A stretch of 24,873 bases of DNA from a virus. The notes under the pieces are model-generated. The model was given only the letters and a program-made list of their open reading frames with translations. It was not told the DNA's origin and did not search any database. This document shows positions 158 to 24,786 of the stretch, one piece after another. The stretch is from UHGV virus genome UHGV-0240820; one strand, written 5' to 3'. Positions within the stretch are counted from its first letter, which is position 1; the number at the start of each line of letters is the position of its first letter. The position numbers were made by a program, and so were the translations under genes.

Positions 158-431
158 CCTGCAACTTGCCGTTAAAGGTGAATACTTCGATGCCATGATT
201 CGCGGAGAGAAAACGGAAGAGTATCGCCTGTGTAATGACTACTGGAATAAGCGAATTATGTTCCGCGAGTATGACCGCCTGATTATCACAAAGGGATATC
301 CGAAGCGCGACGATTCCAGCCGCAGAATTGACGTCCCGTATGACGGATATGAAATCAAGACAATCACACATCCGCACTTCGGCGATAAGCCGGCAAAGGT
401 GTTCGCGATAAAGGTGAATATTGATGGCTAA
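150..431 (+). CDS. ASCH-domain-like small protein (93 aa)
   Basis: GTG start at 150 preceded by AGGAGG (138-143). Contains a G-x-K-x-x-E-x-R motif (RGEKTEEYR) characteristic of ASCH/PUA-like domains. Domain call is from memory of the motif. Confidence 0.5.
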   Translation: MANLQLAVKGEYFDAMIRGEKTEEYRLCNDYWNKRIMFREYDRLIITKGYPKRDDSSRRIDVPYDGYEIKTITHPHFGDKPAKVFAIKVNIDG

Positions 432-726
432 ATCAGCAGCAGAGCGCAAAGCCGCTCAGAGAGCCAGACAAGCTGCATCTGGTGTGCGTAAGCTGGAAAT
501 TGTGCTTGATGCTCAGGAAATTGAAATGCTGGAGCGTAACTGTGCCACGCGTCGCCCCGGGCGTGCGCCTTACGAATTTGGTGAGTATATAGCGTTACTG
601 ATCCGCCAGGATGATGCACGCGTGCACGGGCGTATAAAATCGATCAGCAGAAACGTTGCGGTAAGTGCGGCGAGAGAGTTCCCGTTAATTCATGCCCGTG
701 TAATGGTGACTCGGAATGCTGGGTGA
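424..726 (+). CDS. hypothetical small protein; 3' part probably frameshifted (see findings)
   Basis: ATG at 424 with AAGGTGA (411-417) at 6 nt spacing. N-terminal 70 aa look protein-like; the C-terminal 30 aa in this frame do not, while the -1 frame encodes a Cys-rich ribbon-like tail ending at TGA 759-761. Confidence 0.4.
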   Translation: MAKSAAERKAAQRARQAASGVRKLEIVLDAQEIEMLERNCATRRPGRAPYEFGEYIALLIRQDDARVHGRIKSISRNVAVSAAREFPLIHARVMVTRNAG

Positions 727-756
727 CTAAAGGCTGGCATGAAACGAAATTAATAG

Positions 757-770
757 CGTGACATGTCACG
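757..770. repeat. 14-bp perfect palindrome CGTGACATGTCACG
   Basis: Read directly from sequence; the 12-bp core GTGACATGTCAC recurs at 3023-3034. Confidence 0.6.
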
Positions 771-810
771 AGTAGATTATGCATGATGAATTTGATGGGT
801 TTTGAATACT

Positions 811-837
811 GCCGCCAACTATGGCGGCTTTATTTTG
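811..837 (+). terminator. intrinsic terminator-like hairpin upstream of the terminase genes
   Basis: GCCGCCA (811-817), loop ACTA, TGGCGGC (822-828), followed by TTTATTTTG. Confidence 0.55.
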
Positions 838-842
838 CATGG

Positions 843-862
843 TACTATTACCACAACGGTAA
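843..862 (+). promoter_or_regulatory. -10-like TACTAT abutting dyad TTACCACAACGGTAA (848-862); candidate late promoter/operator
   Basis: Same hexamer-plus-dyad arrangement as at 21184-21203 on the minus strand. Lies 18 bp upstream of the terminase small subunit start. No good -35 element. Confidence 0.4.
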
Positions 863-879
863 CTATTACCACGGTGGTT

Positions 880-1476
880 ATGATGCCTGCTGAACCTAAA
901 ACCTATAAACGCAAATCAACGCAATTTAAGCCACTAACAGCAATGCAGGAGGCTTATTGCCAGTCATACATCAAAACGCCTGAAAACCAGACTCAGGCAG
1001 CGATTAACGCAGGATTCTCCCCAAATACAGCGGCAGTTAAAGCCAGTCTCATGATGCGCGATGAACGCATTCAAAAACGGATTGCCGAGCTGATGGAAGA
1101 GCGCAACAAACGAATGCGCGTCAGTGCTGATTACGTTCTCATGCGCCTGGTGGAGATCGACCAGATGGACGTGATCGACATCCTCAACGACGATGGGAGC
1201 CTTAAGCCAATCCGCGAGTGGCCGAAAATCTGGCGCACTACGCTTAGTGGCTTTGATCTGTCATCGACCATCATGAACATGAACGAGGATTCGATAGAGA
1301 CAATCCTCAAAAAAATTAAATGGCCTGACAAGGTGAAGAACCTCGAACTGATTGGTAAGCACGTCGACGTCAACGCATTCAAAGAACGCCTGGATGTTAA
1401 TGTGAATGTGACAATTGCTGATCGCATAGCGGCAGCCAGGAAGAGACTGAAAGAACGTCAGGATGGCAATCAGTGA
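880..1476 (+). CDS. terminase small subunit
   Basis: Position immediately upstream of, and overlapping (GTGA), the large subunit. Sequence resembles small-terminase families (from memory). Start placed at ATG 880 (or 883, GGTGG at 873-877); the ORF-track start at 802 is rejected because it spans the terminator and the direct repeat. Confidence 0.7.
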   Translation: MMPAEPKTYKRKSTQFKPLTAMQEAYCQSYIKTPENQTQAAINAGFSPNTAAVKASLMMRDERIQKRIAELMEERNKRMRVSADYVLMRLVEIDQMDVIDILNDDGSLKPIREWPKIWRTTLSGFDLSSTIMNMNEDSIETILKKIKWPDKVKNLELIGKHVDVNAFKERLDVNVNVTIADRIAAARKRLKERQDGNQ

Positions 1477-2998: not shown

Positions 2999-3025
2999 AG
3001 CCAGCTCATCGGCTGGCTGTTTGTG
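2999..3025 (+). terminator. weak terminator-like hairpin after the terminase large subunit
   Basis: AGCCAGC (2999-3005), loop TCATCG, GCTGGCT (3012-3018), then GTTTGTG. The T tract is poor. Confidence 0.35.
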
Positions 3026-3034
3026 ACATGTCAC
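3023..3034. repeat. palindrome GTGACATGTCAC (second copy)
   Basis: Exact 12-bp match to the core of the 757-770 palindrome. Confidence 0.6.
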
Positions 3035-3038
3035 GGCG

Positions 3039-3461
3039 TTAGAAGGTTATTTTATCGAATGCGGCGTTGATTGCCTTGGCGTCCTGCTCAGCACCAACCA
3101 CATCAAGTAAAGATCTTTTACTAAGCACTTCAGCCAGGCATTGTAACTTCATGTTGTATAAGTTTTCGCGCATGTAATCATCATCACTTTTTTCTTTGGC
3201 GTATACAGCGCGAGAAATATCAAACACATTGCCTTTTTCCATTTCAGTTTTCTGCGCTGAAATCCAGTCATGGCAAGTAACTCCTATTCCATGGTCATCG
3301 CTAAGCGTTAACCCGGCAAGTCGCTCACCTGGAATTGCTTCACAAAGCATTTCATTTCCTGCAAAAACACCATAAAAAATTGAATCATCACCCTGAACAA
3401 TGCGTACATATTTGCACGGCCATTCATTTAGATATTTAGCTAGCATGTCGGCTGTTTTCAT
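3039..3461 (-). CDS. hypothetical protein (140 aa), reverse-oriented moron
   Basis: Clean ORF with AAGGTGA 4 nt upstream of the ATG on the minus strand. Convergent with the terminase genes. No recognisable motif. Confidence 0.55.
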   Translation of the reverse strand: MKTADMLAKYLNEWPCKYVRIVQGDDSIFYGVFAGNEMLCEAIPGERLAGLTLSDDHGIGVTCHDWISAQKTEMEKGNVFDISRAVYAKEKSDDDYMRENLYNMKLQCLAEVLSKRSLLDVVGAEQDAKAINAAFDKITF

Positions 3462-3659: not shown

Positions 3660-3736
3660 TGGCGTGGCATGCAGGATTCGAACCTGCGACCAACCGCTTA
3701 GAAGGCGGTTGCTCTGTCCAACTGAGCTAATGCCAC
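3660..3736 (-). tRNA. tRNA-Arg (anticodon UCU)
   Basis: Minus-strand 77-nt cloverleaf: acceptor GTGGCAT/ATGCCAC, D stem GCTC/GAGC, anticodon stem ACCGC/GCGGT with loop CTTCTAA, T arm GCAGG-TTCGAAT-CCTGC, discriminator G, encoded CCA. Differs from host argU at several positions (from memory), so it is phage-encoded. Confidence 0.85.
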
Positions 3737-4058
3737 AACGCTGAGAGCACTTAGCCTGTTAAGGCGCCACACTTTGTCGCGGCTCCATAAATGCTCTCAT
3801 CGTTGTACCCTCGTCTCTTCCGAGGCGTCACACCGAATCGCCGGGATGGTGAATCCCCGTGCGCGGAATAAAACCGCTCGACTTGCACATTCCGGCTACC
3901 TGGTTCGTTTGCCACAGCCAGGGAGGGTGCCCCTTAAACGCATCCAGACCGCTATCGGCGCATGTGCCATACGCCGTACTGCTCAAAATAAAAGCTCACT
4001 CCACCTGTTCAATTTAACGACAAGCCAGTCAGGTTAGTAACCGGAATGAACTCTTTGG

Positions 4059-4073
4059 TTACCTGAAAGGTAA
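4059..4073. promoter_or_regulatory. dyad TTACCTGAAAGGTAA (operator-like)
   Basis: One of six TTACC-N5-GGTAA sites; intergenic. Confidence 0.45.
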
Positions 4074-4163
4074 TAATTCGCGCATTAAATGTCAACTGTC
4101 TACGATAAATAAATCATATGTGGTTAAATTGGTAATAATTTAATTGCGTACGGAGTCATTGAT

Positions 4164-19191: not shown

Positions 19192-20043
19192 ATGAAAAAA
19201 ATAAATTTGTTTTTTGGCATAGTGCTTTCAATAGTCTCTGTAAATCCTACAGCTGCCAGTTCATTGCAATGCAATAAGGATAACTTTGATGCATGCAAAA
19301 CGTGTGAACAATTATCAAAGGCTATCGACTTAAAAGAACCTAATCGTGGCGATTACTATAGAGGGGCTTTATGGAATGGGCTTTACGCCTCTTATGTAAT
19401 TAATTGCCCTGTGGTTGCTGAGAAGTTACTGAGCCATGGTGCTATACCATCATATGGCGGATATATGGGGTCTATGGGGGCGGTTCTGACAGGAAAATGG
19501 CCTCATAACAATGAATCAATAAATCTTTCATGGGCAGATTTGCTTATAAAACATGGATTTGATGTTAATAGGCATACGGGGAATTATAAATCAGCTACTG
19601 AAGTATGGGCTATAGATAAAAAACAGATTGAATATAAGTCAGTTTTTGACAAGTTAATTCAATCCAGCGAAGTAAAACCACTCGATCCTTCAAGAAATTT
19701 AGAATGGTGTGCGTCTGAAGGGTATCGCTCAGTTGTCGTTTATTCCCTTAACTCATGTATAGAAAATGCTATAAAACGTTTGGATGATGGTGTTTCTTCA
19801 GCGTCTGATATTTCATCAGCAGCCGTAAATTCCTGTACTAGCGATGTAGAAAATTTCAATAAGCATTTGGCATGCAAAGCAGCTGTTAAAGAAAACTCTG
19901 ATAAAGAGAGAAGCGACGTTTACCAGTTATTAACCAGTGATAGTCAAATGAATAAAAATGTTATTGATATGCTGAAGGAAAGAAATATTGAAACGGTTCT
20001 TGAATTTAGAGCTGAAAATCGATCAGCGAAAACTGCACAGTGA
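19192..20043 (+). CDS. secreted protein of unknown function (283 aa, AT-rich moron)
   Basis: N-terminal signal peptide (MKKINLFFGIVLSIVSVNPTAAS), about 10 Cys, AT-rich codon usage unlike the structural genes. Start is 1 nt after the gp16-like stop. Confidence 0.6.
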   Translation: MKKINLFFGIVLSIVSVNPTAASSLQCNKDNFDACKTCEQLSKAIDLKEPNRGDYYRGALWNGLYASYVINCPVVAEKLLSHGAIPSYGGYMGSMGAVLTGKWPHNNESINLSWADLLIKHGFDVNRHTGNYKSATEVWAIDKKQIEYKSVFDKLIQSSEVKPLDPSRNLEWCASEGYRSVVVYSLNSCIENAIKRLDDGVSSASDISSAAVNSCTSDVENFNKHLACKAAVKENSDKERSDVYQLLTSDSQMNKNVIDMLKERNIETVLEFRAENRSAKTAQ

Positions 20044-20315: not shown

Positions 20316-20828
20316 CTATGCAGGCTTTTTGGATTTGTACGAATAATCCCACGGATAAACATTTCTACTAAGTGGAGCTGTATTCGTTCGTTCATGAAAT
20401 AATTTTGTGAAATTCAATACGGAATCCATCCAAACTTTTGCGTTAGCTTTGGTGTGTGCGGGCGGGTCCCAATAAGCTAGTAAGGCTGCATCTCTTATTT
20501 CATTGACTGCATATATGAGATATGCGTTACTGGTTGGTTTTGGCCTGTAATTTCCTTGTTCATCAATCAATCCATATGACCACTCATCCCAACACTGTTC
20601 AGTACATGAGTATGAATATGATGCATATTCACCAATATTGACATGAACCTTTCTGAGATGGAAGCCTAATACTTCGTCTGGTCTTTCAAAAAGAGTATCT
20701 TTTCCCAGATCAGGATGATGACCATGACGCCAGTGTTGTTTAAAAGCATCTTTTAGCGAAATCAGAAAGTCATCAGTTTTAAACTCACCAGTAGGTATAA
20801 CCTTCCCGCTATACTCACTCAAAAACAT
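20316..20828 (-). CDS. hypothetical protein (170 aa); candidate toxin/effector of a two-gene module
   Basis: Strong RBS (AGAGGA at 5 nt spacing). His cluster (HWRHGHH) and a Cys/Trp-rich segment (YSCTEQCWDEW). Start overlaps the upstream gene's 3' end by 14 nt. AT-rich. Confidence 0.55.
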   Translation of the reverse strand: MFLSEYSGKVIPTGEFKTDDFLISLKDAFKQHWRHGHHPDLGKDTLFERPDEVLGFHLRKVHVNIGEYASYSYSCTEQCWDEWSYGLIDEQGNYRPKPTSNAYLIYAVNEIRDAALLAYWDPPAHTKANAKVWMDSVLNFTKLFHERTNTAPLSRNVYPWDYSYKSKKPA

Positions 20829-21141
20829 CGAATTCCTCTTCCTTCATATGCGTTTCTAATGAGTTAAGCTGGCGGAAAGATATCTCTTTTGATTCTGCAG
20901 ATGAGAGCTTTTTTATCCGCTTGATATTCTTTGTGATAGGAATAGACATTGTATGCACATCAGCGGATGCTCTTGGCTTTGTGCTGATAAAAATATGGCG
21001 CAATGCCGCATTTTCACTATTGAACGAGCCAATAGCTGATTTACGTGCTACAACCTTACCAGTAAAAATACGACTCTTGCTACGCTTTGCATGAGTTCCG
21101 CTTCTTACCGGACCTCTCATCACGAATCCAAGTTTTGTCAT
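20815..21141 (-). CDS. hypothetical basic protein (108 aa); candidate partner (antitoxin/regulator?)
   Basis: GGAG RBS. Arg/Lys-rich N-terminal half and acidic C-terminus (HMKEEEFDVFE). First gene of the overlapping pair. Confidence 0.5.
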   Translation of the reverse strand: MTKLGFVMRGPVRSGTHAKRSKSRIFTGKVVARKSAIGSFNSENAALRHIFISTKPRASADVHTMSIPITKNIKRIKKLSSAESKEISFRQLNSLETHMKEEEFDVFE

Positions 21142-21183
21142 CTTTAATCTCCGGTAAGTTACAGGTATAAAATAAAAACAGGT

Positions 21184-21226
21184 TTACCTTTAAGGTAATA
21201 GTACGCTATTCACCCCCGGTCTGCAA
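21184..21226 (-). promoter_or_regulatory. candidate sigma70 promoter with overlapping operator dyad
   Basis: Minus strand: -35 TTGCAG (21221-21226), 17-bp spacer, -10 TACTAT (21198-21203), overlapping dyad TTACCTTTAAGGTAA (21184-21198) by 1 bp. Confidence 0.45.
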
Positions 21227-22108: not shown

Positions 22109-22200
22109 ATGCGCCACTTAGTAATCCGGGAGACCAATCCCGGCACTGGATTTTGCCAGTGCCCGATTACTATGGCACAAGAGGAGTGCGATGTAAATTT
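22086..22200 (-). ncRNA. structured non-coding leader or sRNA candidate
   Basis: No ATG on the minus strand across 22086-22200. Hairpins at 22126-22143 (6 bp) and 22142-22163 (8 bp) share two nucleotides. Ends in a terminator-like hairpin. Confidence 0.3.
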
Positions 22201-22213
22201 ACCGCAAAGGTAA
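22199..22213. promoter_or_regulatory. dyad TTACCGCAAAGGTAA (operator-like)
   Basis: On the minus strand a -10-like TATCAT overlaps the dyad by 1 bp, with TTGATT 17 bp upstream as a candidate -35. Confidence 0.45.
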
Positions 22214-22291
22214 TGATAAGCGCGAATAAATATCAAAATCAACCGTATTTGGTTGATGGAGTTTAATGCTTGATCACCTGAAAGCAAGATA

Positions 22292-22306
22292 TTACCTTTA
22301 AGGTAA
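22292..22306. promoter_or_regulatory. dyad TTACCTTTAAGGTAA (operator-like)
   Basis: Identical to the 21184 site; 21 bp upstream of the ATG of the 242-aa gene; preceded on the plus strand by AGATAT. Confidence 0.45.
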
Positions 22307-22326
22307 TGTTATTGTGAGGAAAAGCA

Positions 22327-23055
22327 ATGGAAGTTTTCTGGATAGTTGTTGGTGTGGTTGCGGTGATTATTTACGTTATCAACCAGAACAAGACTAAGAT
22401 CTCTGATCGTACGGTCGTTAATCATAACAAAACGATAAAGACCGAAGATGGGGAGATAACGATTAATCGTACACAGGTGATAGAACACACCTCTACTCAG
22501 TTTCAAAAAACTGGAGGTAATGCGCCTAATATTTCCGCACCTCCTGCTTATGATAGTGCGGTAATCCAGACATATTATAAACAGCAGGAGTTAGCAAAAG
22601 AGAGGCAACTGATTCAGCCAAAGCCATTTACAGCAGAGCTTCCACATGGAGTGTCAACGCGTCCGGCATATCATGGAAGATTCCCTGGTGATGACACATC
22701 GTCTCAGTCACCTAAAAAAGCACCTCAGGCAGTATCAGAGCCAGCAAGAATACCTTCTGTATCGCCGTCAAAAGAAGAATCAGCTAACGAAGTTTCAAGT
22801 GCCCGCAAGCAGTGTTTGCGATGCAGAATAACCCTTCCATATGAAAAATTCAGGAAATCGTCAAAAAATCCAGATGGATTGACTAAGTGGTGTGCAAGGT
22901 GTCTCGATGGCCCAAAGAATACACGCCATATGAAGTGGTGCCCAATTTGTAATGTCCGCAGAAAACGAACCAGTTTTTACCCTAATAATCAAAATGCGGA
23001 TGGCTTAATGGCATGGTGCAAAACGTGCTGGGACGAGCACAAAGCGAAACGATAG
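22327..23055 (+). CDS. membrane-anchored protein with C-terminal tandem zinc-ribbon-like repeats (242 aa)
   Basis: N-terminal TM helix (FWIVVGVVAVIIYVI), Pro/Ser/Gln-rich linker, then two repeats of C-x2-C ... DGL ... WC-x2-C. GAGGA RBS. AT-rich. Followed by a terminator. Confidence 0.6.
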   Translation: MEVFWIVVGVVAVIIYVINQNKTKISDRTVVNHNKTIKTEDGEITINRTQVIEHTSTQFQKTGGNAPNISAPPAYDSAVIQTYYKQQELAKERQLIQPKPFTAELPHGVSTRPAYHGRFPGDDTSSQSPKKAPQAVSEPARIPSVSPSKEESANEVSSARKQCLRCRITLPYEKFRKSSKNPDGLTKWCARCLDGPKNTRHMKWCPICNVRRKRTSFYPNNQNADGLMAWCKTCWDEHKAKR

Positions 23056-23079
23056 GCCGCTCTTGCGGCCTTTTCTTTA
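23054..23079 (+). terminator. intrinsic terminator
   Basis: AGGCCGC, loop TCTT, GCGGCCT, followed by TTTCTTTAT; nearly identical to the terminator at 20050-20074. Confidence 0.7.
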
Positions 23080-23334
23080 TCTGGTTTGCTTTCGTAATTG
23101 TTCGGCACAATAGTCGAGATGTGTTTGCAGATCCTGCATAGACATCTGTGAGCTGGTGACGTAGTTAATCAGTGCAGTCAGTTCGGCAAGTGGGCCATCG
23201 ACATTAAATCCATCCTTATCGAGATCCCGGAGTAATTTCATCAAGTGCGATCCCTCCACCAGTGACCTGACGCCTCCCGGCGTGTGAATCCTTTCGGTAA
23301 ATCCGTCTTCCAGTGGATAGTGATACTGCTGCAT
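23077..23334 (-). CDS. stand-alone antirepressor C-terminal-domain paralog (85 aa)
   Basis: About 50% identical by eye to the C-terminal 80 aa of the antirepressor at 21271-21927. Start placed at the internal ATG 23334 (GGAGAAG RBS); the longer ORF to 23457 lacks an RBS and spans the operator dyad. Confidence 0.5.
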   Translation of the reverse strand: MQQYHYPLEDGFTERIHTPGGVRSLVEGSHLMKLLRDLDKDGFNVDGPLAELTALINYVTSSQMSMQDLQTHLDYCAEQLRKQTR

Positions 23335-23410
23335 CTTATCTTCTCCATGCAATAACTGTATGTTTATACAGTAACAAATAATTTGTTTGCTATCCAGCAC
23401 GTTTTGCAAA

Positions 23411-23425
23411 TTACCCGAAAGGTAA
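23411..23425. promoter_or_regulatory. dyad TTACCCGAAAGGTAA (operator-like)
   Basis: Lies between the divergent antirepressor-paralog and tail-spike starts. Confidence 0.45.
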
Positions 23426-23529
23426 TATCTATTGGTATTTATAGTCTTTTTATCCATATATGGTTTTTCAGGTAATAGAATAACCAGATATGCGGCGCAA
23501 CGGGTGCTGCGACTATCTGGAGATTTAAC

Positions 23530-24786
23530 ATGACGGTCTCAACCGAAGTTGACCACAACGAATACACCGGTAACGGCGTTACGACATCGTTTCCGTATAC
23601 TTTTCGAATTTTCAGAAAATCAGACCTGGTTGTTCAGGTGTCTGATCTGAACGGAAACGTAACAGAATTGGTCCTGGATACCGGTTATACGGTAACTGGG
23701 GCGGGCACTTATAGTGGCGGTTCTGTGGTTCTTCCGTCTCCGCTTGCTACTGGATGGCGAATTACGATAGATCGTGTGCTTGATGTAGTGCAGGACACAG
23801 ACCTTCGCAATCAGGGAAAATTTTTCCCCGAAGTGCATGAAGATGCCTTTGACTACCTGACGATGCTGATCCAGCAATGTTTTGGGTGGTTCAGACGTGC
23901 ATTGATGAAACCATCTTTGCTTGCAAAATATTACGATGCAAAGCAAAACAAAATTTCTAACCTTGCAGATCCATCATTTGAGCAGGACGCTGTAAATAAT
24001 CGCTCAATGCGTAATTATGTCGATGCTGCAATCGCCGGAGTTGTTGGTGGTTTTGGTTGGTTTATTCAGTATGGTTCTGGGGCTGTGTACCGAACGTTCC
24101 AGGATAAAATGCGTGATGCTATTAGCCCCAAAGATTTTGGAGCTGTTGGTGATGGTATAAATGACGATTCCACTGCAATAAGCGCGTGCCTTGAAGCCTC
24201 ATCTCCAGGTTATAAAATTGACGGATTAGGGCTTACTTTTAAAGTATCAACTCTTCCGGATGTCAGTCGATTTAAAAATGCTCGTTTTTTATTTGAGAGA
24301 ATACCGGGCCAGCCTCTTTTTTATGCTTCTGAAGATTTTATCCAGGGAGAGTTATTTAAAATTACAGATACACCGTGGTACAACGCCTGGACGCAGGATA
24401 AAACGTTTGTATATGACAATGTCATCTATGCGCCTTTTATGGCTGGAGACCGCCATGGTGTAAATAACCTCCATGTTGCATGGGTTCGCTCAGGAGATGA
24501 CGGGAAGACCTGGACAACGCCGGAATGGCTTACAGATTTACATGAAAACTATCCCACAGTTAACTATCACTGCATGAGTATGGGGGTTGTCAGAAATCGC
24601 CTTTTTGCTGTAATTGAGACGCGGACCGTGAGAGGAAATAAACTGCAGGTTGCAGAGTTGTGGGATCGCCCAATGAGTCGCAGCCTTCGCGTTTATGGTG
24701 GTATAACGAAAGCAGCAAATCAGCAAGTCGCTTATATTCGCATTACTGATCACGGATTGAACCGCCCCGGGAATCCTGGAGACTAA
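23530..24786 (+). CDS. tail spike/fiber protein, 3'-disrupted by IS insertion
   Basis: GGAG RBS. N-terminal ~140 aa resemble the T7 gp17 particle-binding domain (from memory). DFGAVGDGINDD motif and an Asp-box SGDDGKTW (24491-24514). From ~24758 the reading frame runs into IS terminal sequence; the last ~9 codons and the stop are IS-derived. Confidence 0.7.
   Translation: MTVSTEVDHNEYTGNGVTTSFPYTFRIFRKSDLVVQVSDLNGNVTELVLDTGYTVTGAGTYSGGSVVLPSPLATGWRITIDRVLDVVQDTDLRNQGKFFPEVHEDAFDYLTMLIQQCFGWFRRALMKPSLLAKYYDAKQNKISNLADPSFEQDAVNNRSMRNYVDAAIAGVVGGFGWFIQYGSGAVYRTFQDKMRDAISPKDFGAVGDGINDDSTAISACLEASSPGYKIDGLGLTFKVSTLPDVSRFKNARFLFERIPGQPLFYASEDFIQGELFKITDTPWYNAWTQDKTFVYDNVIYAPFMAGDRHGVNNLHVAWVRSGDDGKTWTTPEWLTDLHENYPTVNYHCMSMGVVRNRLFAVIETRTVRGNKLQVAELWDRPMSRSLRVYGGITKAANQQVAYIRITDHGLNRPGNPGD

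What the first reader, a model, noticed from the sequence alone, without database searches (positions are those of the whole stretch)
811..885. Terminator, promoter-like hexamer, dyad and direct repeat stacked before the small terminase gene
Within 70 bp there is an intrinsic terminator (811-837), TACTAT (843-848), the dyad (848-862) and a direct repeat of ACTATTACCAC (844-854 and 862-872). This suggests termination of upstream transcription plus a regulated restart for the packaging/late operon.
Basis: seen in the sequence. Interest (0 to 1): 0.45.

Follow-up and report, generated by a model that had tools for sequence, protein, structure and literature searches.

The report
Repressor-controlled promoter before terminase gene
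The stacked signals in front of the prophage's DNA-packaging genes are a transcription stop followed by a restart promoter overlapped by two copies of the 17-base site annotated as the prophage repressor's binding site, an ordinary arrangement already annotated in the related Salmonella phage epsilon15.

Summary
All four observations are in the sequence at the stated coordinates. The window is a phiV10/epsilon15-like (Uetakevirus) prophage of E. coli.

The dyad and the direct repeat are one thing, not two. They are two tandem copies of a 17-bp palindrome, ATTACC-N5-GGTAAT: O1 at 847-863 and O2 at 865-881. This motif has 8 hits in the window against 0.73 expected. In relatives it lies on both sides of the rep gene and in front of most transcription units. 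The epsilon15 GenBank record annotates it as a repressor-binding site, including the copy before terS, and annotates the terminator too.

TACTAT sits in an extended -10 context (TGgTACTAT). TG-n-TA-n-TAT is invariant in 11 aligned lineages, and the hexamer's last two bases are the first two of O1. The consensus-like PL promoter has the same geometry.

The terminator is strong (z = -5.0). Three lineages lack it, but all keep the promoter-operator module.

Best reading: the terminator ends the early-right operon, and a Rep-repressed sigma-70 promoter restarts transcription of terS-terL.

No experiment was available, and the primary papers could not be read.

A conserved palindrome, GTGACATGTCAC, lies next to three terminators and remains unexplained.

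The parts
424..760 (+). Last gene of the early-right operon. It is the homolog of epsilon15 gp49 / phiV10 gp55, labelled 'transcriptional regulator' (phrog_536), and is 112 aa in relatives. In the window it is frameshifted by a 1-bp deletion in an A-run at about 651.
   Evidence: Alignment with ExPEC XM and TL-2011b. A-run length is 4 in 54 loci and 3 only in L020 and the window. PHROG hit.
811..837 (+). Intrinsic (Rho-independent) terminator: stem 811-817/822-828, loop 818-821, U-tract 829-837.
   Evidence: z = -5.0. Conserved in E. coli, Salmonella, Enterobacter (Tyrion), Citrobacter, Scandinavium and Klebsiella relatives. Annotated as a rho-independent terminator in epsilon15 and phiV10.
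840..848 (+). Extended -10 promoter element TGgTACTAT (TG 840-841, hexamer 843-848). There is no recognisable -35.
   Evidence: TG, TA and TAT are invariant in 11 lineages, while the 'n' and hexamer position 3 vary (G/T/A and C/G/T). The same hexamer-operator overlap occurs at PL of phiV10 and epsilon15 (TTGACA-17-AATTAT/GATTAT) and at three other promoter-like sites.
855..856 (+). Predicted transcription start, 7-8 nt after the -10. Inferred, not mapped.
   Evidence: Inference from standard sigma-70 promoter geometry. No data.
847..863 (+). Operator O1, ATTACCACAACGGTAAC (11 of 12 match to ATTACC-N5-GGTAAT). It spans about -8 to +9 of the predicted promoter.
   Evidence: PWM score 18.0 bits, above the maximum of 50 shuffles, 16.5. 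Its ortholog in epsilon15 is annotated 'protein_bind: repressor' at 12-27. Half-sites are conserved and the spacer varies across lineages.
865..881 (+). Weaker operator O2, ATTACCACGGTGGTTAT. It is 18 bp from O1 and overlaps the ribosome-binding site and the upstream ATG.
   Evidence: PWM 10.6 bits, seventh best site in the window. A second site 18-20 bp downstream of O1 is present in 9 of the 11 lineages aligned and in L103, and is degenerate or absent in the Klebsiella phage and the Serratia prophage.
873..877 (+). Shine-Dalgarno GGTGG for terS.
   Evidence: Read from the sequence. GTGGT is conserved in 10 of the 11 aligned lineages; the Klebsiella phage reads GTGTT. Tyrion annotates an RBS at the equivalent place.
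883..1476 (+). terS (small terminase, Pfam Terminase_2). The real start is ATG 883 (an in-frame ATG at 880 is also possible), not the TTG 802 called by PGAP.
   Evidence: Pfam E = 7.5e-30. ATGCC is invariant in 11 lineages. In-frame stops lie 1-13 codons upstream in L014, L018, the Klebsiella phage, BUCT554 and L016.
4058..4074 (.). Another copy of the same operator, between the leftward tRNA-Arg unit and the gp3-portal operon. It overlaps the leftward promoter-like site TAGACA-18-AATTAT.
   Evidence: Ortholog annotated 'repressor' in epsilon15 at 2931-2947.
21183..21199 (.). Operator copy upstream of the leftward Bro-N/Ant-type gene at 20815-21141.
22198..22214 (.). Operator copy overlapping the leftward promoter-like site TTGATT-18-TATCAT.
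22291..22307 (.). Perfect operator copy, just upstream of ORF 22327-23055.
23410..23426 (.). Perfect operator copy in the intergenic region between ant and the tailspike gene.
   Evidence: Ortholog annotated 'repressor' in epsilon15 at 19895-19911.

Best explanation
Region 811-885 is the boundary between the early-right operon and the packaging operon of a phiV10/epsilon15-like prophage.

1. An intrinsic terminator (811-837) stops transcripts arriving from the early-right operon.
2. Three bases later comes a sigma-70 promoter of the extended -10 type, TGgTACTAT (840-848), with no -35. It would restart transcription near 855 and give a leader of about 28 nt with SD GGTGG before terS ATG 883.
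3. Two tandem 17-bp palindromic operators lie over it. O1 (847-863) covers the end of the -10 and the start site. The weaker O2 (865-881) covers the leader.
4. The operators are copies of the motif (A/T)TTACC-N5-GGTAA(T/A), which is scattered over the promoter regions of these phages and clusters on both sides of rep.
5. The most likely binder is the CI-like repressor Rep, the SPC32H Rep family, which is tetrameric. In a lysogen a Rep tetramer on O1 and O2 would occlude the promoter.
6. When the LexA-controlled antirepressor Ant strips Rep, the promoter would fire together with the other Rep-controlled units.

Shown here: the sequence features, their enrichment, their conservation, and the recurring hexamer-operator geometry.

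Inferred: promoter activity, the start site, Rep as the binder, and the induction sequence.
For: - Identity of the element. terS region is 98% identical to E. coli O157 typing phages, TL-2011b and phiV10, and 79-86% identical to Salmonella epsilon15 and SPN1S. It is present in 651 of 5426 complete E. coli genomes.
- Terminator. Annotated in epsilon15 and phiV10.
- Motif enrichment: 8 hits against 0.73 expected. The best seven lie between confidently assigned genes. Two overlap the mechanical ORFs 21955-2287 and 23077-23457, of which the first has no PHROG hit and the second is homologous only over residues 42-126.
- Motif distribution in epsilon15, SPC32H, phiV10, TL-2011b, Tyrion, BUCT554, a Klebsiella phage and two more distant prophages (Serratia L101, L103). 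It occurs 2-3 times downstream of rep at PL and 1-3 times between rep and the cro-like gene. It also occurs before terS, gp3-portal, ant/tailspike, the lysis genes and int.
- The epsilon15 RefSeq record annotates seven of these sites as 'protein_bind: repressor, lysogeny', including 12-27 just before terS.
- Phylogenetic footprint: half-sites are invariant and spacers free. TG-n-TA-n-TAT is invariant with change only at the degenerate positions.
- Recurrent geometry: the -10 hexamer ends in the AT of ATTACC at PL (perfect TTGACA, 17-bp spacer), at the DUF1064/ruvC promoter, and at two leftward promoter-like sites in the window.
- Operators come in pairs 17-20 bp or 62 bp apart. This fits a Rep tetramer that binds palindromic sites (PMC9638917) through a looping-type tetramerisation domain (PMC9986798).
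- The phiV10-type Rep aligns over its full length with the SPC32H Rep structure 5D50 (E = 1.9e-41). Residues N36, R40 and W41, in the segment I take to be the HTH recognition helix (my assignment by eye), are invariant across Reps down to 42% identity. That matches the invariant half-site.
- The motif does not travel with gp49. The lambda-like phage Chlobot has an intact gp49 homolog and no motif hit in 46.5 kb.
Against: - There is no experimental datum: no mapped 5' or 3' end, no binding assay.
- The primary papers (Kropinski 2007; Kim and Ryu 2013; Kim 2016) are not in the library. I could not check whether Rep binding to this motif was demonstrated or only predicted.
- The rep gene lies outside the window. 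The closest relative with upstream context, L020, shows neither rep nor further motif copies in its 8 kb upstream. L022 carries a different CI/Cro/CII module there.
- No heteroimmune lineage with an altered half-site was found, so operator-repressor covariation could not be tested.
- O2 scores only 10.6 bits, close to the best score of a shuffled window (mean 9.3).
- The promoter has no -35, so it might need an activator.
Confidence: 0.7

Rival explanations
1. Activator-dependent late promoter. The direct repeats would be binding sites for a phage activator, for instance the small ribbon-helix-helix-like, Cys4 protein gp49 encoded just upstream. It would recruit RNA polymerase to a promoter that lacks a -35.
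For: The promoter has no -35. gp49 is conserved as the gene just upstream of terS or of an inserted moron in all lineages, and is labelled 'transcriptional regulator' (phrog_536). Its predicted secondary structure (strand, then two helices, then a Cys4 motif) is compatible with a DNA-binding protein.
Against: The repeat as such is not conserved; only the palindromic half-sites are. The same palindrome flanks rep at PL and PR, which fits a repressor. Chlobot has an intact gp49 homolog but no copy of the motif. The gp49 model has low confidence (pLDDT 61). gp49 is frameshifted in this window.
Confidence: 0.1
2. Packaging signal. The repeats would be a pacL-like recognition site for the small terminase, as in SPP1, where TerS of the same Pfam family binds repeated boxes that overlap its own promoter.
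For: TerS is a Terminase_2 protein. Tyrion is circularly permuted and terminally redundant, hence headful packaging from a pac site that has not been located (PMC5754475). Several GenBank records begin within 762-837.
Against: The motif is not unique. Each genome holds more than 10 copies, including both sides of rep. The record start points differ from record to record (762, 782, 801, 808, 837). In phiV10 the start follows the stop codon of the last gene, so these are conventions and not physical ends.
Confidence: 0.06
3. RNA-level control. In read-through transcripts, 841-887 folds into a long hairpin that pairs the SD and both AUGs. Transcripts started at about 855 lack the 5' arm and can be translated. 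Only promoter-initiated mRNA would then make TerS. This could coexist with the best explanation.
For: The hairpin folds at -16.9 kcal/mol, z = -2.7, and pairs 874-878 and 880-882.
Against: The pairing follows automatically from two tandem palindromes, so it is not independent evidence. The z-score is modest. The pairs cannot be told apart from DNA-level constraint. The Serratia prophage has a single operator and so lacks the long hairpin.
Confidence: 0.1
4. The region is coding. terS would start at TTG 802, as PGAP and the phiV10 record annotate, and the features would be accidents inside an N-terminal extension.
For: The frame is open from 802 in E. coli, epsilon15 and Tyrion.
Against: In-frame stops lie 1, 7, 9 and 13 codons upstream of the conserved ATG in L014, L018, the Klebsiella phage, BUCT554 and L016. 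The Pfam domain starts after residue 19 counted from ATG 880. The substitution pattern follows half-sites, not codons.
Confidence: 0.03

Closest known systems
Epsilon15 features in RefSeq NC_004775.2: 'protein_bind repressor' 12-27 and 'rho-independent terminator' 39646-39672
   Same: Orthologous position and sequence: terminator, then TGTTACTATTACCAAAACGGTAAT, then terS. Six further annotated copies have the same 17-bp motif.
   Different: The E. coli version has one mismatch in O1 (GGTAAC). The second site O2 and the extended -10 are not annotated in epsilon15. As far as I could verify, the epsilon15 annotation is a prediction.
Rep/Ant lysogeny switch of Salmonella phage SPC32H (PDB 5D50, 5D4Z)
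   Same: Same phage genus. SPC32H carries the same motif before terS, at PL, at PR and between ant and tsp. Its Rep is a tetramer that binds palindromic sites and is homologous to the phiV10-type Rep.
   Different: The window holds neither rep nor the PL/PR region. Binding at the terS site has not, to my knowledge, been tested.
Lambda CI with tandem operators OR1-3 and OL1-3
   Same: 17-bp palindromic operators in tandem overlap -10 elements, with cooperative and looping oligomers.
   Different: In lambda the operators are confined to the immunity region, and late genes are controlled by Q antitermination. Here copies stand before the packaging, head, tailspike, lysis and int units.
Dispersed repressor sites: P1 C1 operators and mycobacteriophage L5 gp71 stoperators (recalled from memory)
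   Same: One prophage repressor with many sites spread over the genome, including late regions.
   Different: Those sites are asymmetric, and L5 stoperators depend on orientation. The present motif is a symmetric palindrome, usually placed on promoter -10 regions.
SPP1 pacL, the TerS-binding boxes that overlap the gene 1 promoter (recalled from memory)
   Same: Repeated boxes just upstream of a Terminase_2-family terS gene in a headful-packaging phage.
   Different: The present boxes are copies of a motif found throughout the genome. No terminase binding or cleavage site is known here.

Membership tests
Intrinsic (Rho-independent) terminator | G+C-rich hairpin immediately followed by a U-tract, on the strand of the upstream gene | tested here: met
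   7-bp stem with 6 G-C pairs, 4-nt loop, tail TTTATTTTG. -16.2 kcal/mol, z = -5.0.
Intrinsic (Rho-independent) terminator | Located at the 3' end of a transcription unit and conserved there | tested here: met
   It lies 50 nt after the stop of the (intact) gp49 gene. It is present in 8 of the 11 aligned lineages.
Intrinsic (Rho-independent) terminator | Transcript 3' ends at the U-tract | not testable with these tools
   Needs Term-seq or in vitro transcription.
Sigma-70 extended -10 promoter | TG at -15/-14, one base, then a -10 hexamer with A at position 2 and T at position 6 | tested here: met
   T840 G841 g TACTAT 843-848. TG, TA and TAT are invariant in 11 lineages, with variation only at 'n' and hexamer position 3.
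Sigma-70 extended -10 promoter | Placed upstream of a gene at leader distance, with a ribosome-binding site | tested here: met
   The -10 ends 34 nt before ATG 883; SD GGTGG at 873-877.
Sigma-70 extended -10 promoter | Mapped transcription start and promoter activity | not testable with these tools
   No transcript data are available.
Operator of the Uetakevirus Rep repressor (SPC32H Rep family) | Match to the 17-bp palindrome ATTACC-N5-GGTAAT | tested here: met
   O1 and O2 each match 11 of 12 specified bases. PWM scores are 18.0 and 10.6 bits.
Operator of the Uetakevirus Rep repressor (SPC32H Rep family) | The same motif flanks the rep gene at PL and PR/PRM in the same kind of phage | tested here: met
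   phiV10, epsilon15, SPC32H, TL-2011b, Tyrion, BUCT554, L021, L101 and L103.
Operator of the Uetakevirus Rep repressor (SPC32H Rep family) | A cognate rep gene in the same prophage | tested here: inconclusive
   The window starts downstream of the immunity region. Among close relatives, L021 has a phiV10-type Rep. L020 shows none in 8 kb upstream, and L022 has a different CI-like module.
Operator of the Uetakevirus Rep repressor (SPC32H Rep family) | Physical binding by Rep and repression of the overlapped promoter | not testable with these tools
   Support is only the GenBank label 'repressor' and a secondary description of Rep binding palindromic sites. The primary papers are not held.
pac site / TerS recognition site | Unique or nearly unique in the genome and coincident with packaging-series ends | tested here: not met
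   The motif has 7-8 copies in the window and more than 10 per genome. Record starts in this region are conventions. Physical ends could not be tested.
Lambda Q-type late antitermination module | Promoter followed downstream by the terminator it reads through, plus a Q-family protein | tested here: not met
   The terminator lies upstream of the promoter. gp49 has no Pfam or PDB sequence match.

The most novel reading that the evidence does not exclude
In this phage group there may be no dedicated late activator. One tetrameric repressor, through about a dozen palindromic operators placed on the -10 regions of nearly every transcription unit (packaging, head, tailspike, lysis, int, antirepressors, early left and early right), would hold the whole genome silent. 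Intrinsic terminators would insulate the units from each other.

In addition, a second conserved palindrome, GTGACATGTCAC, precedes three of those terminators and travels with the gp49 gene. It could be the site where gp49 modulates termination, including at the terminator of this finding.
Probability: 0.3. Interest if true: 0.5.

Novelty: already known. Interest (0 to 1): 0.2.

Why it matters
For annotation, three things follow.
- terS should start at ATG 883, not at TTG 802, where PGAP places it in ExPEC XM and where the phiV10 record places it.
- The 761-882 interval is a regulatory spacer.
- The 'direct repeat' should be read as two repressor operators.

For biology, it adds a documented case of a prophage repressor whose operators sit directly on a packaging-operon promoter. 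The case is replicated across at least eleven enterobacterial lineages. This helps explain how these common E. coli and Salmonella prophages, present in about 12% of complete E. coli genomes, keep their late genes silent.

It does not open a new question. The orthologous site is already labelled in the epsilon15 record.

Tried and rejected
- Rfam on 600-1100. The only hit was a sub-threshold rseX match (26.8 bits against a gathering score of 50, E = 0.33), centred on the terminator. Rejected as chance.
- The consensus promoter scan found nothing at the site because it requires a -35. The extended -10 was recognised by eye and by conservation.
- Primary literature (Kropinski 2007; Kim and Ryu 2013; Kim 2016) is not held under DOI, PMID or PMC id. 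Text searches for the motif or for epsilon15 operators gave nothing useful. The ZX5 paper has no operator or packaging detail.
- Heteroimmunity and covariation test. I looked for a lineage in which the Rep recognition helix and the operator half-site changed together. Every Rep down to 42% identity keeps N36, R40 and W41, and every genome keeps TTACC/GGTAA, including the Serratia prophage. The result is consistent but not discriminating.
- gp49 structure. The AlphaFold model has pLDDT 61, too poor for a fold search, so none was run. There is no Pfam or PDB sequence match.
- Physical-end idea. Records begin at 762-837, but at five different points. Tyrion is circularly permuted.
- Genome-collection scan with TerS. 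It returned only 6 loci. The viral scan returned 80 loci that are nearly identical in TerS, useful for micro-variation but not for deep divergence.

Full report
**What the window is.** The 400-1500 segment is 97-98% identical to E. coli O157 typing phages 9 and 10, TL-2011b, ZX5 and phiV10. It is 79-86% identical to Salmonella phages epsilon15, SPN1S and SPC32H and to Enterobacter phage Tyrion. It occurs in 651 of 5426 complete E. coli genomes. The window is therefore a Uetakevirus-type (epsilon15/phiV10-like) prophage. Gene order around the finding is: ASCH-domain gene (150-431), the gp49 homolog (424-760 when intact), terS (Pfam Terminase_2, E = 7.5e-30) and terL.

**The observation.** All four elements are present at the stated coordinates. 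The terminator has a 7-bp stem with 6 G-C pairs, a 4-nt loop and the tail TTTATTTTG. RNA 800-840 folds at -16.2 kcal/mol with z = -5.0. ACTATTACCAC occurs exactly twice in the window, 18 bp apart.

**What the dyad and the repeat really are.** The dyad extends to ATTACC-ACAAC-GGTAAC (847-863). A second copy, ATTACC-ACGGT-GGTTAT, follows at 865-881. Both match ATTACC-N5-GGTAAT at 11 of 12 specified bases. With up to two mismatches the window holds 8 matches against 0.73 expected, and no shuffle out of 100 reaches 8. The other good copies are at 4058, 21183, 22198, 22291 and 23410. They lie between the confidently assigned genes. Two of them fall inside long mechanical ORFs that are probably not real over that stretch. 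I built a position matrix from 44 sites in five reference genomes, leaving out the terS sites. It scores O1 at 18.0 bits, above the best score of any of 50 shuffled windows (16.5). It scores O2 at 10.6 bits, the seventh best site in the window. The 11-bp direct repeat is thus a by-product of two palindromes in tandem. In Salmonella relatives the repeat decays to about 8 of 11 matches, while the half-sites stay.

**Who binds it.** The epsilon15 RefSeq record annotates seven copies of this 17-mer as 'protein_bind: repressor, lysogeny'. One is at 12-27, immediately before terS. The record also annotates the hairpin at 39646-39672 as a rho-independent terminator.

My own scans cover epsilon15, SPC32H, phiV10, TL-2011b, Tyrion, BUCT554, a Klebsiella phage and two more distant prophages from Serratia and an unnamed host. 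The motif occurs 2-3 times just downstream of rep (PL) and 1-3 times between rep and the cro-like gene (PR/PRM). It also occurs before terS, gp3-portal, ant/tailspike, the lysis cassette, int and a mid-early operon. Sites come in pairs 17-20 bp or 62 bp apart.

- The SPC32H repressor is described as a tetramer that binds palindromic sites, with each DNA-binding pair drawn from different dimers (PMC9638917).
- Its C-terminal domain is a looping-type tetramerisation domain (PMC9986798).
- The phiV10-type Rep aligns end to end with that structure (5D50, E = 1.9e-41).
- Across Reps down to 42% identity, residues N36, R40 and W41 are invariant. I place them in the presumed HTH recognition helix by eye. 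This matches the invariant TTACC half-site.

The alternative candidate, gp49, is uncoupled from the motif. The lambda-like phage Chlobot carries an intact 112-aa gp49 homolog and has no match to the motif in 46.5 kb. I conclude that Rep is the most likely binder. I could not read the primary papers to see whether this has been shown by experiment.

**The promoter.** TACTAT is preceded by TG at the extended -10 position (TGgTACTAT, 840-848). In an alignment of 11 lineages, TG, TA, TATTACC, GTAA (859-862; G858 is A in L016), the ATT that opens O2 and ATGCC are invariant. TTAC is kept in 10 of the 11. The base between TG and the hexamer varies (G/T/A), and so does hexamer position 3 (C/G/T). That is the pattern expected of a selected extended -10 element.

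The hexamer's last two bases are the first two of O1. The same overlap occurs at several other sites:
- PL of phiV10 (TTGACA-17-AATTAT|TACC) and of epsilon15 (TTGACA-17-GATTAT|TACC);
- the DUF1064/ruvC promoter (TTGATT- or TTGAAA-17-TTTAAT or TTAAAT|TACC);
- two leftward promoter-like sites in the window (4102-4073 and 22242-22213).

With a start near 855, O1 spans about -8 to +9 and O2 about +11 to +27.

**Coding or not.** PGAP starts terS at TTG 802 in ExPEC XM, and the phiV10 record does the same. That start would put all the features inside a gene. In five lineages there are in-frame stops 1 to 13 codons upstream of the conserved ATG. The only invariant start is the ATG aligned with 883. 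The interval is non-coding.

**The terminator is separable.** BUCT554, L014 (Pseudocitrobacter) and L016 (Erwinia dacicola) lack the hairpin. There a moron preceded by a perfect LexA box (CTGT-N8-ACAG) ends about 25 nt before the TG, yet the promoter-operator module is intact. The slot between gp49 and the terminator is an insertion hot spot. Many E. coli relatives hold a 70-aa ORF there. The window retains only its last codons, at 785-807.

**Rivals.**
- A pac site is unlikely, because the motif is dispersed and the record starts within 762-837 are conventions. Tyrion is circularly permuted.
- The long RNA hairpin 841-887 (-16.9 kcal/mol, z = -2.7) would hide the SD and AUG only in read-through transcripts. 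It follows automatically from tandem palindromes.
- Rfam gives nothing above threshold.

**Limits.** Everything here is computational. The window does not contain rep. The nearest relatives with more upstream sequence show either no rep within reach (L020) or a different CI/Cro/CII module (L022). It is therefore not certain that this particular prophage still has the cognate repressor. No lineage with a changed half-site was found, so covariation could not be tested.

**Verdict.** The region is a terminator followed by a repressor-controlled restart promoter for the packaging operon. This is an ordinary arrangement, and its ortholog is already annotated in epsilon15. Interest is low.

The more intriguing item is adjacent to the finding. 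A perfect palindrome, GTGACATGTCAC, precedes this terminator and two others in every genome examined, and it travels with gp49 even into a lambda-like phage. It remains unexplained.

Noticed in passing
window 758-769 and 3023-3034; also L007 2142-2153, 19517-19528, 39612-39623; L008 2262-2273, 19493-19504; L100 17494-17505: The perfect 12-bp palindrome GTGACATGTCAC occurs at three conserved places in Uetakevirus genomes. Each copy lies 0-41 nt upstream, in the direction of transcription, of an intrinsic terminator: at the end of gp49, at the end of the leftward unit next to terL, and at the end of the long structural operon. It also follows the gp49 homolog in the lambda-like phage Chlobot, where it is non-coding and no terminator is evident in the ~55 nt shown. 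It occurs twice in variant form in a Serratia prophage. It is not the Rep operator. It could be a gp49 binding site or a module-boundary sequence.
   Followed up: partly
window 424-760 (deletion at about 651): The gp49 homolog is 112 aa in relatives, with a basic N-terminus, a ribbon-helix-helix-like core and a C-terminal Cys4 motif. In the window it is frameshifted by loss of one A from an A4 run, which cuts off the Cys4 domain. Only 1 of 55 related viral loci (L020, 99% identical) shares this. It is either a real pseudogene allele or a homopolymer error.
   Followed up: partly
window 785-807: This is a remnant (…DEFDGF*) of the 3' end of a 70-aa ORF that sits between gp49 and the terminator in many E. 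coli relatives. In other genera the same slot holds a moron gene (called UmuD-like on my reading, not tested) behind a perfect LexA box and a TTGACT-17-TATACT promoter.
   Followed up: partly
window 802-1476: PGAP (ExPEC XM) and the phiV10 record start terS at the TTG equivalent to 802, running through the terminator and operators. Comparative evidence puts the start at ATG 883.
   Followed up: yes
window 3660-3736 (-) and 3039-3461 (-): A tRNA-Arg (anticodon TCT) and a phrog_4846 gene are transcribed leftward between terL and the portal operon. Its counterparts at the same position are annotated Gp49 / Sf6 gene 66 family in ExPEC XM, phiV10 and BUCT554. They appear to be driven by the promoter-like site 4102-4073, which overlaps the operator copy at 4058-4074.
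   Followed up: partly
window 23530-24786: The tailspike ORF is only 418 aa and matches just the N-terminal two thirds or less of tailspike profiles. It may be truncated or mosaic.
   Followed up: no
L022 1108-2668: One relative that is 99% identical from the gp49 homolog through the late region carries a different immunity module about 8 kb upstream of terS. It has an S24-type CI-like repressor with divergent Cro- and CII-like genes, and no Rep-type operators in the 10 kb upstream. It nevertheless keeps O1 and O2 before terS unchanged.
   Followed up: partly
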